64,000 nt of DNA from Candidatus Woesearchaeota archaeon (GCA_046705145.1 JBJKQO010000049.1:591-64590); one strand, 5' to 3'; positions 1-64,000 are shown, numbered from the stretch's first letter. The notes: generated from the sequence alone by a model not told the origin. Numbers and translations are program-made.

Positions 1-20
1 TCATGCAAAACATCAACGCG

Positions 21-53
21 CGTCGCGGGGGGTTGCCCCATCCGGGGACGCAG
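21..53 (+). repeat. GC-rich 33-nt element, copy 1 (cgtcgcggggggttgccccatccggggacgcag), upstream of the L10e gene
   Basis: Identical to 60491..60523 except one base (T/A at core position 13). Contains nested inverted repeats (CGTC...GACG, GGGG..CCCC). GC-rich in a roughly 38% GC genome, so a 32/33 match is non-random. Confidence 0.6.
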
Positions 54-172
54 CGCTCGCTCTTTACACAGACTGAGTTTTGAAGATGCTACAACCTATT
101 TTAACCTCTTATCCTGCTGTTTTTACCCAACCAAAACCTTTTTAAATGGGATTTGATTCTCCAGAAAGCACA

Positions 173-749: not shown

Positions 750-1688
750 ATGGTCGGATTTAAAGGAGTGACTCGTAGGGAGTTCATAAAACATATTTTG
801 TTCTTTTGGGGGCCTATTTTAACAGGAGGATCTATAAGTTATCTAGATAATAGGCATATGAAAAAGCCCCCTGTAGAGACTGAACACCATCTGCTTCTGG
901 ACAGCCATGTCCATCTATCTGCTAAAGAAAAACCTGAAAATCTGGTTTTAGCTTTAAGCAAAGGAATTACTGTAATCACAGCGATATCAGGATCTAAAGG
1001 GATCTTAACATATAATCAGGCAATTCAGCTTGAGGGGGTCACTGAAACAGAAGACGGGATTATGGCGAAGGTTGAACACGAAGGGAATGTGGGTTATATC
1101 GTAAGAGGCCAGGAGATTGTATCAGACAAACATCATATTGTAGGCATATCATGGAAGGATAATCCTAATGTTCCTATCACCAGCCACGCTGACTCAAGAA
1201 GGACAGTGGAAGAGATCCAAAAAAGAGGGGGGCTAGCTATCTTAGCCCATGGATATGCAGTGAGAAGAGATTTTGGTTTTACCTACCCCTCTTATGAAGA
1301 AGAGAAAAGAATATCAGAGTTGCTTAGAGGGGTTGATGGAGCAGAAACATTTAATTCAAATTGCATATGTCTTGTTCCTGGATTATTTGATGTGAGCGAT
1401 GCAAATCGAAGGATGTTAGAAACAGTCCAAACTAAAACTAAGTTAAGAGGATTAAATGTTTCAGACACACATTACCAACTTAAACAACACCAATTATCAG
1501 GGGTGATGGTGCCAAAAGAACATTTTTGCTTAGAAGCATTATGTCATTATATCACTTCCGGAGCATTCATTAATAATTCAATTACTTTCGGAAACCCAAG
1601 AATAAGTGCAAAATTACAGAATTATGTTAGCAGATGGAGTTTTATCAAAGGGACATTAAGAGTAAATTTTGATGAATGTCTTGAATAA
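750..1688 (+). CDS. PHP-domain metal-dependent phosphoesterase with Tat-like N-terminal motif
   Basis: PHP motifs are present: LLLDSHVHLS (HxH), ILAHGY, ETFNS and a C-terminal SDTHY. The N-terminus VTRREFIKHILFFWGPILTGG matches the twin-arginine consensus S/T-R-R-x-F-L-K followed by a hydrophobic stretch. Codon usage is atypical for the window (A/T-ending codons). Confidence 0.45.
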   Translation: MVGFKGVTRREFIKHILFFWGPILTGGSISYLDNRHMKKPPVETEHHLLLDSHVHLSAKEKPENLVLALSKGITVITAISGSKGILTYNQAIQLEGVTETEDGIMAKVEHEGNVGYIVRGQEIVSDKHHIVGISWKDNPNVPITSHADSRRTVEEIQKRGGLAILAHGYAVRRDFGFTYPSYEEEKRISELLRGVDGAETFNSNCICLVPGLFDVSDANRRMLETVQTKTKLRGLNVSDTHYQLKQHQLSGVMVPKEHFCLEALCHYITSGAFINNSITFGNPRISAKLQNYVSRWSFIKGTLRVNFDECLE

Positions 1689-1722
1689 TTTGTTTTTTTT
1701 GCTTAATGGATTCTCAATTACA

Positions 1723-1730
1723 TTTATAAA
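1723..1730 (+). promoter_or_regulatory. TATA box (tttataaa) for srp54
   Basis: The AT-rich box lies about 23-30 nt upstream of the SRP54 ATG at 1753. The spacing fits an archaeal leaderless or short-leader transcript. Confidence 0.4.
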
Positions 1731-1752
1731 GAAAAACTGCTTTCCATCTAAA

Positions 1753-3120
1753 ATGCTTGACAAACTATCAGAATCCTTAAAGAACACATTGTCTAAGATA
1801 GCTAAATCAATGTTTGTTGATGAGAAGCTCATAAACGAGCTAGTGAAAGACATACAAAGAGCGCTTCTGCAGTCAGATGTAAACGTAAAATTGGTCTTTG
1901 ACCTCACCAAAAAGATAAAGGAAAGGGCACTTGATGAGAAAGCGCCTACAGGGCTTGCAAAAAGAGAGCAGCTTGTAAACATAGTCTATGAGGAGCTTGT
2001 CAGGTTCCTCGGCGAAGACAAGGCAGAGATAGTCATAGGAAAGGAAAAGCCATTCAAGATAATGATGGTCGGGCTTTTTGGTTCAGGAAAGACAACAACA
2101 ACAGGCAAGCTTGCAAAGTATTACTCAAAAAGAGGATTTAAGGTAGCAGTAGTCGGCCTGGATGTCCACAGGCCAGCTGCGATGAGCCAGCTCGAGCAGG
2201 TCGCAAAAGTAGCAAAGGTATCTTTCTTCATCGAGAAAGGGGAGAAGGACGCAGTAAAGATATGGAAAAAGCACGAATCAGAGCTCAACAAGTTTGACAT
2301 AGTGATAGTCGACACAGCAGGAAGAGATGCTCTTTCTGACGACCTTATCAAGGAGATAGAATCCGTGAACTCGATCATCAAGCCGCAGGAAAGGCTTCTT
2401 GTGATATCAGCTGACATCGGCCAGGCAGCGCAGAAGCAGGCACAGCAGTTCCACGATTCTGTTAGCATAACAGGCGTCATAACCACAAAGATGGACGGCA
2501 CAGCAAAAGCAGGAGGCGCCTTATCTGCATGCGCAGTAACATCCGCCCCAATAAAGTTCATAGGAGTAGGAGAGAAGGTTGATGATCTTGAGGTCTTCAA
2601 CCCAAAAGGATTCGTGTCAAGGCTTCTTGGGATGGGAGACCTAGAAGCTCTTCTTGAGAAAGCGAAAGAAGCAGTGTCTGAAGAAGAAGCAAAAGACCTA
2701 TCAAAAAAGCTGCTTAAAGGCGAGTTCTCACTTATCGACCTTTATGAGCAGATGGAAGCCATGAAAAAGATGGGTCCACTTTCAAAGGTCATGGAGATGA
2801 TCCCAGGCATGGGCCAGCTCAAGATACCAAAAGAGGCTCTTAACGTCCAGCAGGAAAAGCTAACATCATGGAGATACATAATGGACTCCTGCACAGAGGA
2901 AGAGCTTGAGGATCCTGACTCGATAAACATCCACAGGATAGAAAGGATAGCAAAAGGCTCAGGAAGGTCAGTATCTGATGTTCGCGAGCTTCTCAAGCAA
3001 TACAAGCAGTCAAAAAAACTCATGAAGATGTTCAAGGGAAAAGACCCTGAAAAGATGATGAAGAAGATGGGCGGAATGAAAGGCATGGCAGGGATGGGCG
3101 GAGGAGTAAAGTATAAGTGA
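1753..3120 (+). CDS. srp54: Signal recognition particle protein SRP54
   Basis: N domain, GTPase motifs GLFGSGKTTTTGKLA, DTAGR and TKMDG, and a Met-rich M domain ending in MKKMGGMKGMAGMGG. The conserved start MLDKLSESL is at 1753; the track ORF start at 1669 adds an implausible leader. Confidence 0.9.
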   Translation: MLDKLSESLKNTLSKIAKSMFVDEKLINELVKDIQRALLQSDVNVKLVFDLTKKIKERALDEKAPTGLAKREQLVNIVYEELVRFLGEDKAEIVIGKEKPFKIMMVGLFGSGKTTTTGKLAKYYSKRGFKVAVVGLDVHRPAAMSQLEQVAKVAKVSFFIEKGEKDAVKIWKKHESELNKFDIVIVDTAGRDALSDDLIKEIESVNSIIKPQERLLVISADIGQAAQKQAQQFHDSVSITGVITTKMDGTAKAGGALSACAVTSAPIKFIGVGEKVDDLEVFNPKGFVSRLLGMGDLEALLEKAKEAVSEEEAKDLSKKLLKGEFSLIDLYEQMEAMKKMGPLSKVMEMIPGMGQLKIPKEALNVQQEKLTSWRYIMDSCTEEELEDPDSINIHRIERIAKGSGRSVSDVRELLKQYKQSKKLMKMFKGKDPEKMMKKMGGMKGMAGMGGGVKYK

Positions 3121-60415: not shown

Positions 60416-60448
60416 CTTCCTCTTTTTTTTGGATTTTGCAAAACTGGG

Positions 60449-60564
60449 GTCGCCATCAATCTGTGAGCTTTCTCACTTTTATATCCGGCCCGTCGCGGGG
60501 GGATGCCCCATCCGGGGACGCAGGGCCTTAACAAATCAAGGCACAAGCGAACCAGATGGCGACC
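60449..60564. ncRNA. candidate structured RNA / leader element containing copy 2 of the GC-rich 33-nt repeat
   Basis: Closed by a 10-bp helix, ggtcgccatc (60449..60458) with gatggcgacc (60555..60564). Internal hairpins include gtgag-cttt-ctcac and ggccc...gggcc around the repeat. About 60% GC versus a window average below 40%. It lies between the AbrB-like gene and the 856-aa gene, and no plausible ORF spans it. Confidence 0.35.
60491..60523 (+). repeat. GC-rich 33-nt element, copy 2 (cgtcgcggggggatgccccatccggggacgcag)
   Basis: 32 of 33 bases identical to 21..53, in the same orientation, 60470 bp apart. Confidence 0.6.
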
Positions 60565-60657
60565 TCGCGAAGCGAAGTTTTGCCTCATTGACTATGAGCT
60601 GGCAGGGAAGGCTTTTTGGGGTGGACGATCCCTGCCAGCATTGTGGTATGTTCGGAT

Positions 60658-60824
60658 TATTTTTTTCTGACTTTTTTGATCACAACCTCTCCTTTTTCGT
60701 TAAGCTTAAACTCAAGCCTGGTCCCTTGCTTAAACCCTAAAGCTTCAGCTAGCGCTTTTGGGATCGTGACCACATACTGGTCGTTCACAGTCTTTTGGAC
60801 CTTTCTTGTGCTTGCCATATCCAT
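60658..60824 (-). CDS. AbrB/MazE/SpoVT-family small DNA-binding protein
   Basis: 55 aa, MDMASTRKVQKTVNDQYVVTIPKALAEALGFKQGTRLEFKLNEKGEVVIKKVRKK. The swapped-hairpin signature VVTIPK...G.K.G is present. It is shorter than the ORF-track cutoff. It sits upstream and co-oriented with the element at 60449..60564 and the two large secreted-protein genes. Confidence 0.5.
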
Positions 60825-60990
60825 CAAATTTTAATATTAAAAATAATATTAAAATAGACTATAAAAAGCTTTTGGAAAAAATTACACTATACTGCAAAAA
60901 ACAGGCAGTATTAACTACCCTCTTAAGATGAGAAACGTTTTTATACCTTAAAAAATTGTCTCAACACACTAATCTTAGAGGTGGTTTTTT

Positions 60991-62783: not shown

Positions 62784-64000
62784 CTAACCCAGCTTGCTCA
62801 CATAGCCCCTTCTTGGCTCGTATATGTCTCCGCCGCGCCTGAGCCTTTCGATGACAGTCTCGACCTCGTCCTCATCCATGCCTTTCTCCTTTGCAAGCTT
62901 GCTTATCTCTTCTATGGGTATCATCTTTCCAAGCTTGTTCTCAAGCTCAGTTATTATCTCTTTTATCACAGAGATCTTTCCGCGCTGTGACGCAGTTATA
63001 CCTGTCGCGATCTTGTCTATGTCAATCGTTCCTGTCTCCTCATCAAACGCTATCTGCCTGAGGCAGTAGTTGAGAAGCTCGATAGCTCTTTTTGCATCCC
63101 TTCGCCTTATCATCTTGGCAAGCCTGACCTTTGCAACTGCCTCAGTGATCCTTACAAGGCCCTCAAGCTGCCTTGTCGAGATAGGGATGCTTTTAACGCC
63201 TTCACCAGTCCCCTTGGACCTCATGGTAAGATAATAGTTCTTAAGCTCAGACATTGCCTCATCAGAAAGCTTTGGCTTGCAATGGGTCTTGGCATAAGCG
63301 ATATACTTCCTAAGAAATTCCGTGCTTACCTCCATCTCTCCGACAAAAGGGTTCTGGTGCAGCTTAAGGATGAACTCTGCCATCATGTCATCCTTCTTCT
63401 CATCAGGAAGATCCTTTATAGGAAATATCAGGTCGAACCTGTTGATAAGGGTAGGAGGAAGATCTATCTGCCTTGCTATGACATCGTTAGGGTCAAACCT
63501 TCCGTACTTTGGGTTTGCTGCAGCAAGAACAGTTGTCTGTGAATGAAGTGTTGCCTGGATATTCGCTTTTGATATAGTGACACTCTGCTGCTCAAGAGCC
63601 TCGTGCATCGCGCTCCTGTCTTCCTTGCTCATCTTATCAAGCTCATCTATCATGCACATGCCCTTGTTTGCCAGGACCAATGCACCTGCTTCAAGGCTCC
63701 AACCCTGAAGAAAATCATCCTTGACCACCGAAGCAGTATTGTGGACCAGCACGCCATCAACAACAAAATTGTGAGAGTCTTCAACAGTTAGGTCATAGAC
63801 AAAACTGTAACCGGGAACCTTTTCTTTTATTGAAACAACCTTTTCCCAAAATATATCGCTTTTTGCAATCTTTTTGATTTCTTCACATCCCTCTTCTTTT
63901 GGGATAAGATCAAGCAGCTTTTTTAAGGCTTCATTTGACAGGTTCTTATGCCAGCCTGCTTTTTTCAAAGGCACCTTATTCTTTTGCATAAGGCCTTTTA
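62784..64000 (-). CDS. mcm: MCM replicative helicase, 3' part only (gene continues beyond the window), containing an intein
   Basis: The extein part carries TASVVKDDFLQGWSLEAGALVLANKGMCMIDELDKM (Walker B), the sensor/arginine finger region NRFDLIF and a C-terminal wH. The frame is open to the window edge at 64000. Confidence 0.8.
   Translation of the reverse strand, partial: KGLMQKNKVPLKKAGWHKNLSNEALKKLLDLIPKEEGCEEIKKIAKSDIFWEKVVSIKEKVPGYSFVYDLTVEDSHNFVVDGVLVHNTASVVKDDFLQGWSLEAGALVLANKGMCMIDELDKMSKEDRSAMHEALEQQSVTISKANIQATLHSQTTVLAAANPKYGRFDPNDVIARQIDLPPTLINRFDLIFPIKDLPDEKKDDMMAEFILKLHQNPFVGEMEVSTEFLRKYIAYAKTHCKPKLSDEAMSELKNYYLTMRSKGTGEGVKSIPISTRQLEGLVRITEAVAKVRLAKMIRRRDAKRAIELLNYCLRQIAFDEETGTIDIDKIATGITASQRGKISVIKEIITELENKLGKMIPIEEISKLAKEKGMDEDEVETVIERLRRGGDIYEPRRGYVSKLG
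63738..64000 (-). other. intein (C-terminal portion) inserted in MCM
   Basis: ...GYSFVYDLTVEDSHNFVVDGVLVHN immediately followed by the extein residue T. This matches the intein C-terminal block (penultimate His, terminal Asn, +1 Thr). Upstream intein sequence (KIAKSDIFWEKVVSIKEK...) continues past the window end. Confidence 0.6.

What the first reader, a model, noticed from the sequence alone, without database searches (positions are those of the whole stretch)
60449..60564. GC-rich 33-nt motif duplicated 60.5 kb apart, the second copy inside a 116-nt closed structured element
cgtcgcggggggNtgccccatccggggacgcag occurs at 21..53 and 60491..60523, matching at 32 of 33 bases, in the same orientation. 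The genome is otherwise AT-rich. Copy 2 is embedded in a region closed by a perfect 10-bp long-range helix (ggtcgccatc/gatggcgacc) with internal hairpins. Copy 1 sits in the 5' region of rpl10e at the window edge. The motif offers competing pairings (GGGG/CCCC). It could be a small RNA family, a repeated leader or attenuator, or a protein-binding structured DNA motif.
Basis: seen in the sequence. Interest (0 to 1): 0.65.

Follow-up and report, generated by a model that had tools for sequence, protein, structure and literature searches.

The report
Small archaeal transposon with folded core
The duplicated GC-rich 33-base motif is the conserved folded centre of a small non-coding jumping element (a MITE) that is scattered through the genomes of tiny DPANN archaea; it is neither a gene leader nor any catalogued RNA.

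Summary
The 33-mer occurs twice in the window (21-53, 60491-60523), with none expected by chance. It is not a private duplication. The same motif is found on 51 independent contigs, almost all from Woesearchaeota/Nanoarchaeota, often in several copies per genome and often at contig ends. Each time it forms the tip of a 105-125-nt folded core: P1, a 5' internal loop, P2, and a 3-bp helix P3 that clasps the 33-mer. The core is flanked by terminal inverted repeats, either GTAT... or GGCTCTGT.... Immediately outside these lie 8-bp target-site duplications: 11 of 40 copies are perfect, against 0.4% in controls. This makes it a MITE family with IS6-like ends. IS6-family transposases that make 8-bp duplications are common in these lineages, but an exact autonomous partner was not found. 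Window copy 1 is an A-type copy cut off by the window edge. Copy 2 is a B-type copy with decayed ends. The unusual feature is that the core is better conserved than the ends. Its helices covary strongly (95.8% paired; 23 of 29 pairs show compensatory changes) and its loops are nearly invariant. This points to selection on a folded single strand, RNA or ssDNA, whose function is unknown. Rfam gives no match. Moderate interest.

The parts
1..95 (+). Copy 1: the 3' two-thirds of an A-type element core, with its 5' part cut off by the window edge
   Evidence: Covariance model R1 scores 61.8 bits, E 2.6e-12, covering model positions 25-122 and flagged as 5'-truncated. The right flank GAGTTTTGAAGATGC is the family's P2/P1 3' strand.
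21..53 (+). Copy 1 of the 33-mer (apical domain)
   Evidence: Exact pattern match. It is clasped by P3: GCG 18-20 pairs with CGC 54-56 (read; P3 covariation).
75..95 (+). Copy 1 P2 3' strand (GAGTTTTGA, 75-83), the unpaired A at 84, and the P1 3' strand (GATGCTACAAC, 85-95)
   Evidence: Alignment to the family. The partner strands lie upstream of the window.
96..130 (+). Probable right terminal arm of copy 1 (...CCTGCTGTTTTTACCCAAC); the exact end is uncertain
   Evidence: By eye it resembles the right arms of the L006 copies (..TCTGACTTTTTACTTAT / ..CTGACTTTCTACATAC). This is inference: the left arm is not in the window, so neither the inverted repeat nor the duplication can be checked.
60438..60583 (+). 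Copy 2: a whole B-type element as far as it is recognisable (outer helix 60438-60445 / 60576-60583)
   Evidence: R1 scores 73.8 bits, E 3e-15, on 60447-60565. The alignment with B-type copies L015, L034, L041, L045, L046 and L028 shows the shared architecture. The outermost inverted repeat (GGCTCT...) is not recognisable and there is no 8-bp duplication, so this is a decayed copy.
60446..60457 (+). Copy 2 P1 5' strand, pairing with 60555-60566
   Evidence: 12 bp with one G.U. P1 columns covary across 47 copies, 95.9% paired.
60463..60468 (+). Copy 2 P2 5' strand GUGAGC, pairing with GCGAAC 60547-60552 (includes a tandem G.A / A.G)
   Evidence: Deduced by homology with the other B-type copies and L047. 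It competes with the local hairpin 60463-60476 found in the single-sequence fold.
60487..60490 (+). Copy 2 P3 5' strand (GGCC), pairing with GGCC 60524-60527
   Evidence: P3 is 99.3% paired across 47 copies; its two inner pairs show 4 and 3 different pair types.
60491..60523 (+). Copy 2 of the 33-mer. It contains the helix G5-C31 / C6-G30 / G7-C29 (60495-97 / 60519-21), the G-run 60498-60502, and the C-run 60507-09, which can pair with G 60515-17 or with G 60500-02
   Evidence: Exact pattern match. Positions 6 and 30 covary (C-G in 39 copies, U-A in 7, U.G in 1). Positions 13, 14, 16, 20 and 22 vary.
60565..60575 (+). Copy 2 bulged mini-hairpin UCGCGAAGCGA, lying between P1 and the outer helix
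   Evidence: Other B-type copies carry an equivalent at the same place: CGAGCGCAGCGAA, CGAGCGGAGCGAA, CCTGCGAAGCAGA.

Best explanation

Shown: an element consists of terminal inverted repeats, which also form the outer helix P1, followed by a 5' internal loop, helix P2, a variable junction, and a 3-bp helix P3 that clasps the 33-mer. Insertion duplicates 8 bp of an AT-rich intergenic target.

Inferred: the elements encode nothing. They are moved in trans by a DDE transposase that recognises the ends, most likely of the IS6 family. The GGCTCTGT... ends and the 8-bp duplications fit that family, and IS6 elements are abundant in the same lineages.

Inferred: the core is kept by selection on a folded single strand of + polarity. 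The most probable reason is that it helps the element itself to propagate or persist, for example as a binding platform for the transposase or a host protein, or as a stable fold in read-through transcripts. A host function for each individual copy is less likely.

In this window, copy 1 is an A-type copy lying immediately upstream of the rpl10e promoter and cut by the window edge. Copy 2 is a B-type copy whose ends have decayed and which is probably no longer mobile.
For: Family and distribution. Exact motif scans found 10 genome contigs, nearly all labelled Woesearchaeota or Nanoarchaeota, and 41 metagenome contigs. Model R1 finds 47 or more copies, including 3 copies within 8 kb of L006 and 2 in L005.

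Mobility. 8-bp direct repeats lie immediately outside the inverted repeats. Examples are L030 GAGTTTTG, L020 GATTAGAT, L050 GATAATTG, L052 TATTTTCG, L017 TTATTTTC, L048 GACGAAAA, L001 CTGAAAAA and L023. Of 40 distinct copies, 11 match 8/8 and 3 match 7/8, against 0.4% and 2.2% in mismatched-flank controls. L023 holds a different MITE with the same GGCTCTGTAGAAA ends, its own duplication (TGTTAGCAG) and an unrelated interior. A nested insertion (L001), a half copy (L004) and contig breaks at the element (L002, L003, L007, L011, L053) also fit a repeated mobile element.

Transposase link. IS6100 has the inverted repeat GGCTCTGTTGCAAA (PMC10470526). The IS6 family makes 8-bp duplications, has GG tips and a cTGTt motif, is abundant in archaea, and has known MITEs (PMC7986276). 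An IS6-family transposase lies in L051 (PF13610, 7e-18). It has 465 homologues, several labelled Nanoarchaeota or Woesearchaeota. In L055 the IS has ends of the type GG..TGTCAAGTT and the duplication AAATAAAC.

Folded core. 95.8% of cells are paired, against 33-44% for slid controls, and 23 of 29 pairs show compensatory change. Mean pairwise identity is 0.90 for the 33-mer, 0.54-0.59 for the helices and 0.37-0.41 for the junctions. Purine-type mismatches on the + strand (G.U 21, G.A/A.G 25) outnumber their minus-strand equivalents (A.C 12, C.U/U.C 11).

Exclusions. Rfam gives nothing at gathering thresholds for the window, nor at E<=1 for nine loci. At E<=10 the two copy regions gave only three sub-threshold matches to unrelated families. 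The element is absent from viral, phage and plasmid collections.
Against: No autonomous IS with exactly the MITE ends was found. The IS6 copies examined have related but different ends. A-type ends start with a single G, not GG. ISL3 elements also start GGCTCTT and also make 8-bp repeats (PMC6305408).

About half of the copies show no recognisable duplication.

Neither window copy can itself be shown to be a transposition product: copy 1 is truncated, and copy 2 has no duplication and decayed ends.

L049 is a head-to-tail array (period 129, at least 4.5 units) with no inverted repeats between units, which simple cut-and-paste or copy-in transposition does not explain.

In ordinary MITEs the ends, not the interior, are the conserved part; here it is the reverse, across at least three types of end.

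The invariance of 26 of the 33 positions is partly an ascertainment effect, because the scan patterns fixed those positions. Copies found by the model alone sometimes deviate (L005b, L010b, L025:12618).

There is no expression data, so RNA and DNA cannot be told apart. Orientation relative to neighbouring genes shows no clear bias.
Confidence: 0.8

Rival explanations
1. A host-encoded small structured RNA gene family. Each copy would be a gene transcribed from its own promoter, and the RNA would act in trans (regulatory, guide or scaffold RNA). The inverted repeats would simply be a long closing or processing stem.
For: Helices covary strongly and unpaired nucleotides are near-invariant. Mismatches are biased toward the + strand. 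TATA-like boxes lie about 25-30 nt upstream of the first base in L002, L003, L005 and L008 (read). Copy 2 and the L049 array keep an intact core without recognisable ends.
Against: Eight-bp target duplications and shared ends with an unrelated MITE. Copy number is variable and sometimes very high locally (3 in 8 kb). Copies occur in either orientation in unrelated contexts. There is no conserved promoter element: window copy 2, L009 and L010 have none. Nested and truncated copies exist.
Confidence: 0.1
2. A new class of mobile catalytic or processing RNA. The core would be a self-cleaving ribozyme or a nuclease-recognition fold that cuts read-through or multimeric transcripts to unit length, carried on transposon ends, by analogy with the ribozyme-bearing repeats of eukaryotes.
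For: Many conserved unpaired nucleotides are set in covarying helices. A head-to-tail array of complete units exists in L049. A G-run/C-run/G-run arrangement is compatible with a pseudoknot or a switch. The core is conserved across at least three types of end.
Against: No similarity to any ribozyme model in Rfam. A manual attempt to thread the core onto HDV-like, twister, K-turn and bulge-helix-bulge topologies failed (reasoning). No cleavage site can be named. There is only one array.
Confidence: 0.07
3. A cis-regulatory leader or attenuator of rpl10e and other genes (one of the first reader's options).
For: Copy 1 lies about 80-120 nt upstream of the rpl10e start codon, in the same orientation.
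Against: Copy 2 is antisense to both of its neighbours. In 42 family members the neighbouring genes and orientations are unrelated. A TATA-like box (TTTTTAAAT, 139-147) sits about 30 nt before the ATG at 173, downstream of the element, so the rpl10e transcript probably starts after the element (inference).
Confidence: 0.02
4. The two copies are attachment sites (attL/attR) of a 60.5-kb integrated element, or an assembly artefact.
For: They are direct repeats in the same orientation, 60.5 kb apart, one of them at the window edge.
Against: Each copy has its own complete, and different, flanking architecture (A-type versus B-type). The interval encodes core genes (rpl10e, SRP54; read from the ORF translations) and no integrase or transposase was recognised in the ORF list. 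The same motif occurs on 51 unrelated contigs.
Confidence: 0.01

Closest known systems
IS6/IS26-family insertion sequences and their MITE derivatives
   Same: 8-bp target duplications. Short terminal inverted repeats with a G tip and a (c/t)TGT motif: the B-type end GGCTCTGTAGAAA compares with GGCTCTGTTGCAAA of IS6100. The family is abundant in archaea and MITEs of it are on record (PMC7986276, PMC10470526). IS6-family transposases with 8-bp duplications occur in Nanoarchaeota/Woesearchaeota contigs.
   Different: No full-length IS with identical ends was found. A-type ends begin GTAT with a single G. The element carries a large, conserved, GC-rich folded core that the IS copies examined do not contain.
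Structured bacterial intergenic MITE-like repeats (Neisseria Correia elements, enterobacterial ERIC/IRU, Rickettsia palindromic elements)
   Same: Own knowledge: these are 100-170-bp non-coding elements with inverted ends. They are dispersed in intergenic DNA, are co-transcribed with neighbours, and fold into long hairpins that can affect mRNA processing or stability.
   Different: Those elements are essentially long imperfect palindromes. This family has an asymmetric, multi-helix core with invariant loops. That core is shared across several classes of end and is conserved across genomes whose other sequence is unrelated. It occurs in archaea, and the duplication is 8 bp rather than TA.
ISL3-family ends
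   Same: GGCTCTT... termini and 8-bp direct repeats, for example ISArsp7 with GGCTCTTCGCGG and the repeat CCTTTGCC (PMC6305408). These resemble the B-type ends GGCTCTT(T/G)TGAAACCC.
   Different: No ISL3 transposase was seen in any locus. The variant GGCTCTGT.. fits IS6 better.
Rfam RNA families (SRP RNA, RNase P RNA, 5S rRNA, tRNA, small ribozymes, HgcC-type GC-rich archaeal RNAs)
   Same: A GC-rich structured island in AT-richer DNA of about 120 nt, closed by a terminal helix.
   Different: No family reaches threshold, even at permissive E-values. ARAGORN finds no tRNA. The partial resemblance of GGGGUUGCC..CCCAUCC to helix II/loop C of archaeal 5S rRNA (own recollection) is not backed by the rest of the fold.

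Membership tests
MITE (miniature inverted-repeat transposable element) | Short (under about 500 bp) and non-coding | tested here: met
   Elements are about 130-190 bp. All three codon positions are conserved in the 33-mer, and ORFs over copy 2 are short and present on both strands.
MITE (miniature inverted-repeat transposable element) | Terminal inverted repeats | tested here: met
   GTATTTGTTTAGC/GCTAAACAAATAC, GTATGTGCATAGC, GTATGAATTAAGC.., GGCTCTGTAGAAACC/GGTTTCTACAGAGCC, GGCTCTTTTGAAACCC. For window copy 2 only the inner part (GCAAAACT/AGTTTTGC) is recognisable.
MITE (miniature inverted-repeat transposable element) | Target-site duplication of fixed length immediately outside the repeats | tested here: met
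   The duplication is 8 bp. Of 40 copies, 11 match 8/8 and 3 match 7/8, against 0.4% and 2.2% in controls. It is not met for window copy 2 (5/8) and not testable for copy 1.
MITE (miniature inverted-repeat transposable element) | Several dispersed copies per genome | tested here: met
   L006 has 3 copies in 8 kb. The JACPBV MAG has 3 copies on two contigs. The JAHWHQ MAG has at least 2. The window has 2.
MITE (miniature inverted-repeat transposable element) | An autonomous element with the same ends that encodes the transposase | tested here: inconclusive
   IS6-family elements are present in the same lineages, but their ends are related rather than identical.
MITE (miniature inverted-repeat transposable element) | Insertion polymorphism (empty sites in related genomes) | not tested
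The only other contigs of the window's organism break at the element.
IS6/IS26-family derivative | 8-bp duplication, and 14-20-bp inverted repeats with a GG tip and cTGTt/caaa motifs (PMC7986276) | tested here: inconclusive
   The B-type end GGCTCTGTAGAAA fits the GG tip and CTGT. The A-type end GTATTTGTTTAGC has a single G and TTGTT. ISL3 is an alternative for the GGCTCTT ends (PMC6305408).
Any Rfam family (including SRP RNA, RNase P RNA, 5S rRNA, ribozymes) | Covariance-model score at or near the family threshold | tested here: not met
   No hits at gathering thresholds in the window. At E<=10 the only hits around the two copies are unrelated noise. No hits at E<=1 on nine loci.
Structured functional RNA (generic) | Compensatory base changes that support the helices | tested here: met
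   23 of 29 pairs show double changes. 95.8% of cells are paired against 33-44% in slid controls. 0 of 500 shuffles reach the observed value. The alignment was fitted to the model, which favours the structure.
Structured functional RNA (generic) | Evidence that it is transcribed as a defined molecule | not testable with these tools
   No transcriptome data were available. There is no conserved promoter, and orientation is unbiased.

The most novel reading that the evidence does not exclude
The conserved core may be a previously undescribed functional RNA that rides on transposon ends. It could be a self-processing ribozyme or a specific protein-recognition fold that the element needs in order to spread or persist. 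If so, this would be a mobile structured-RNA class in DPANN archaea rather than an ordinary MITE. Three observations point this way: the core is kept across at least three classes of end, it is kept in copies whose ends have decayed, and it occurs as a head-to-tail array.
Probability: 0.2. Interest if true: 0.75.

Novelty: new member of a known kind. Interest (0 to 1): 0.4.

Why it matters
DPANN archaea have very small genomes, yet they tolerate dense populations of this element. A published census already ranked a Woesearchaeal genome among the most MITE-dense archaea (PMC11602168).

A described family with a searchable model has three practical uses. It explains many contig breaks in DPANN metagenome-assembled genomes: a dozen of the 51 contigs end at or near the element (within about 250 nt of a contig end), and both short-read contigs of this organism end exactly at the 33-mer. 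It prevents these GC-rich islands from being mistaken for small-RNA genes or leaders. It also supplies a lineage marker.

The scientific point of interest is that the interior of the element, not its ends, is the part under the strongest constraint, and that this constraint acts on base pairing. If the fold proves to act as an RNA, it would be a rare case of a structured RNA spread by a DNA transposon in archaea.

Tried and rejected
Known RNAs. Rfam at gathering thresholds on the window, and at permissive thresholds on both copies and on nine loci, gave nothing relevant. ARAGORN found no tRNA.

By hand I tried to fit the fold to 5S rRNA, a tRNA or split tRNA, a K-turn, a bulge-helix-bulge splice motif, H/ACA and C/D guide RNAs, HDV-like and twister ribozymes, and a CRISPR repeat. 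None fits the conserved pairing.

The RNAalifold pairing inside the 33-mer (CGUC with GACG) was rejected, because positions 6 and 30 covary.

Left half of copy 1. Three look-ups by exact protein found only 1.6-kb and 3-kb short-read contigs, both of which break at the 33-mer.

More copies in the window. A model search with filters off found only the two.

Viruses and plasmids. The motif is absent from the viral contigs, and copy 2 is absent from the phage and plasmid collections.

Attachment-site, diversity-generating-retroelement and leader readings were rejected on context.

Autonomous partner. Solo ends in L036, L037, L048 and L004 adjoin ordinary genes. IS6 copies in six loci have different ends.

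Orientation bias relative to genes and the G.U versus A.C count gave only weak signals.

The array in L049 is open in several reading frames on both strands. I attribute this to its GC-rich repetition and do not take it as evidence of coding.

Full report
**Observation**

The 33-mer CGTCGCGGGGGGNTGCCCCATCCGGGGACGCAG occurs exactly twice in the window, at 21-53 and 60491-60523. Both copies are on the + strand and differ only at position 13. None of 100 dinucleotide-preserving shuffles produced a match.

The window is 37-50% GC per kb. It is archaeal: rpl10e at 173-709, SRP54 at 1669-3120, and an MCM-like gene at 62784-63989 on the minus strand (the gene names rest on reading the ORF translations, not on a database search).

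The helix described around copy 2 is real. It starts at 60448 rather than 60449 and extends to 12 bp (60446-57 / 60555-66). A further 8-bp helix (60438-45 / 60576-83) surrounds it. The region folds far better than shuffled sequence, with z = -4.8 on the + strand.

**It is not a known RNA**

Rfam gives no hit at gathering thresholds anywhere in the 64 kb. At E up to 10, only unrelated noise appears around either copy. ARAGORN finds no tRNA. Nine related loci also give nothing at E up to 1.

**It is a widespread family**

An exact scan of one genome per species found the motif on 10 contigs. Nearly all are labelled Woesearchaeota or Nanoarchaeota, and two MAGs contribute two and three contigs respectively. 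Several hits lie at contig ends. A slightly degenerate pattern found 41 metagenome contigs and no viral contig.

Aligning the flanks showed that the 33-mer always sits at the tip of a larger element. That element consists of:
- an outer helix, P1;
- a 5' internal loop (CUAAGG in most copies) opposite a single A;
- helix P2 (UCGAAAC/GUUUCGA and variants);
- a variable junction;
- a 3-bp helix, P3, that clasps the 33-mer.

A covariance model built from seven copies (R1) scores window copy 2 at 73.8 bits and the truncated copy 1 at 61.8 bits. With filters off it finds no third copy in the window. It also recovers copies that lack the exact motif. L006 holds three copies within 8 kb and L005 holds two. 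In total it finds 46 hits in the metagenome loci.

**It is mobile**

In most complete copies the outer helix ends in GTAT...ATAC or GGCTCT...AGAGCC, and the eight bases immediately outside are the same on both sides. Examples:
- GAGTTTTG (L030)
- GATTAGAT (L020)
- GATAATTG (L050)
- TATTTTCG (L052)
- TTATTTTC (L017)
- GACGAAAA (L048)
- CTGAAAAA (L001)
- TATTTTTT (L008)
- TCCCAAAG (L006)

I measured this automatically: extend the inverted repeat, then compare the adjacent 8-mers. Of 40 distinct copies, 11 gave 8/8 and 3 gave 7/8. Controls that paired the left flank of one copy with the right flank of another gave 0.4% and 2.2%.

Several further observations fit a repeated mobile element:
- L023 carries a different element of about 170 bp with the same GGCTCTGTAGAAA ends, its own duplication (TGTTAGCAG) and an unrelated AT-rich interior.
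- L001 has a 55-nt nested insertion, and L004 is a half copy.
- Assemblies break at the element. L002, L003 and L007 end in it, as do the two short-read contigs of the window's own organism, L011 and L053.

Taken together, these are the defining features of a MITE.

**Which transposase**

The GGCTCTGTAGAAA ends resemble the IS6100 inverted repeat GGCTCTGTTGCAAA (PMC10470526). They share the IS6-family hallmarks: 8-bp duplications, a GG tip and a cTGTt motif. The family is abundant in archaea and has MITEs on record (PMC7986276).

L051, which holds a copy of the element, also encodes an IS6-family transposase (PF13610, E 7e-18). That protein has 465 homologues with E below 1e-10, several labelled Nanoarchaeota or Woesearchaeota. 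Their IS copies end in GG(T/G)(A/G)NTGTCAAGTT, and in L055 one is flanked by AAATAAAC on both sides.

These ends are related to the MITE ends but not identical to them. ISL3 elements also start GGCTCTT and also make 8-bp repeats (PMC6305408). The mobilising family is therefore inferred, not shown.

**The two window copies**

Copy 1 has the A-type core: GAGTTTTGA-A-GATGC at 75-89, and P3 as GCG/CGC at 18-20 / 54-56. It is cut by the window edge, so its left arm and its duplication cannot be examined. A TATA-like box at 139-147, about 30 nt before the ATG at 173, lies downstream of the element, so copy 1 is probably not part of the rpl10e transcript (inference).

Copy 2 aligns with the B-type copies L015, L034, L041, L045, L046, L028 and the L049 units. 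It shares with them:
- the GCCATC/GATGGC inner part of P1;
- a P2 containing a tandem G.A (GUGAGC 60463-68 with GCGAAC 60547-52);
- a bulged mini-hairpin after P1 (60565-75);
- the inner part of the inverted repeat.

Its outermost ends are not recognisable and it has no duplication, so it is probably a decayed copy. The two copies in one genome thus belong to different subfamilies and share only the core.

**The unusual part: the core**

Across 47 model-aligned copies, 95.8% of cells in my structure are standard pairs, against 33-44% when partners are slid by one to three columns. Of 29 pairs, 23 show changes on both sides. No shuffle out of 500 reaches the observed values. The alignment was fitted to the model, which favours the structure.

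P3 is 99.3% paired, with four and three pair types at its two inner pairs. Inside the 33-mer, positions 6 and 30 covary: C-G in 39 copies, U-A in 7 and U.G in 1. This establishes the helix G5-C31 / C6-G30 / G7-C29 and rules out the CGUC/GACG pairing that RNAalifold proposed.

The C-run (17-19) can pair with G25-27 or with G10-12. Both alternative loops contain the variable positions (13, 14, 16; 20, 22), and both G-runs are invariant.

Mean pairwise identity is 0.90 in the 33-mer, 0.54-0.59 in the helices and 0.37-0.41 in the junctions. BLAST of the whole window against all loci finds essentially nothing shared except the element.

One caveat applies. The scan patterns fixed 26 of the 33 positions, so their invariance is partly built in. 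Of the copies found only by the model, some conform (L006 B and C) and some deviate (L005b carries a 30-nt insertion; L010b and L025:12618 are divergent).

On the + strand, G.U (21) and G.A/A.G (25) exceed A.C (12) and C.U/U.C (11). This is a modest hint that the + strand is the folded one. Orientation relative to neighbouring genes shows no clear bias.

**Interpretation**

I conclude with about 0.8 confidence that the finding is the conserved core of a MITE family in DPANN archaea.

Selection on so many dispersed copies is most easily understood at the level of the element. In that view the fold is needed for spread or persistence, for example as a platform for the transposase or a host protein, or as a stable structure in read-through RNA. 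This step is inference.

The data do not exclude a real RNA function. The core is shared by at least three classes of end. It survives in a copy whose ends have decayed. In a marine contig (L049) it forms a head-to-tail array of period 129 with no inverted repeats between units. I give about 0.2 to the reading that this is a new mobile functional RNA.

MITE-rich Woesearchaeal genomes have been reported in bulk (PMC11602168). My literature searches found no description of this particular family.

Noticed in passing
window 22332-45089 (-): A single open reading frame of 7,586 codons, presumably a giant secreted or surface protein. Parts of it resemble, at the DNA level, a 1,213-codon ORF in L038.
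   Followed up: no
window 60600-60641: A perfect 11-bp inverted repeat (GCTGGCAGGGA...TCCCTGCCAGC) with a 20-nt loop. It lies just beside copy 2, between it and the end of a small AbrB/MazE-like gene (60657-60827, minus strand; PF04014). It is not part of the family model.
   Followed up: partly
L049 (AACY023842657.1) 1-572, read on the minus strand: A head-to-tail array of at least 4.5 complete B-type cores, period 129 nt, about 66% GC, with only a 2-nt linker between closing helices and no terminal inverted repeats. It runs to the contig end. Because 129 is a multiple of three, several reading frames stay open.
   Followed up: partly
L001 (JACPBV010000026.1), inside the right arm of its copy: A nested insertion of about 55 nt. 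It contains a miniature echo of the core junction (CCCTAAG-AAAC-GAA-GTTTCG-TGGG) followed by a second hairpin (AATAATGC-GCGA-GCATTATT).
   Followed up: no
L023 about 2290-2460 (-): A different MITE of about 170 bp with the same GGCTCTGTAGAAA ends and the duplication TGTTAGCAG, but an AT-rich interior without the 33-mer. The same ends therefore carry different cargoes.
   Followed up: partly
L055/L056, downstream of the IS6 copy: The IS6-family element has a conserved GC-rich, hairpin-rich leader before its start codon. In L055/L056 it is followed by what looks like an intron-containing tRNA gene and a tyrosine-integrase gene.
   Followed up: no
window 139-147 and 146/173: A TATA-like box (TTTTTAAAT) overlaps the upstream ATG at 146 and lies about 30 nt before the ATG at 173. 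The rpl10e start is therefore probably 173, with a very short leader.
   Followed up: no
window 62784-63989 (-): By eye, the MCM-like ORF begins with what looks like the C-terminal end of an intein (..VVDGVLVHN followed by T), suggesting an intein-interrupted MCM gene that runs off the window.
   Followed up: no
whole window: No tRNA, rRNA or any Rfam family in 64 kb. The ORF list contains no obvious transposase.
   Followed up: partly
L006 175-1647: Two copies in direct orientation bracket a 1.2-kb segment holding one gene; from its N-terminal sequence it looks like a tRNA-dihydrouridine synthase (not checked against any database). The arrangement resembles an IS6-type pseudo-compound transposon but may be chance.
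   Followed up: no
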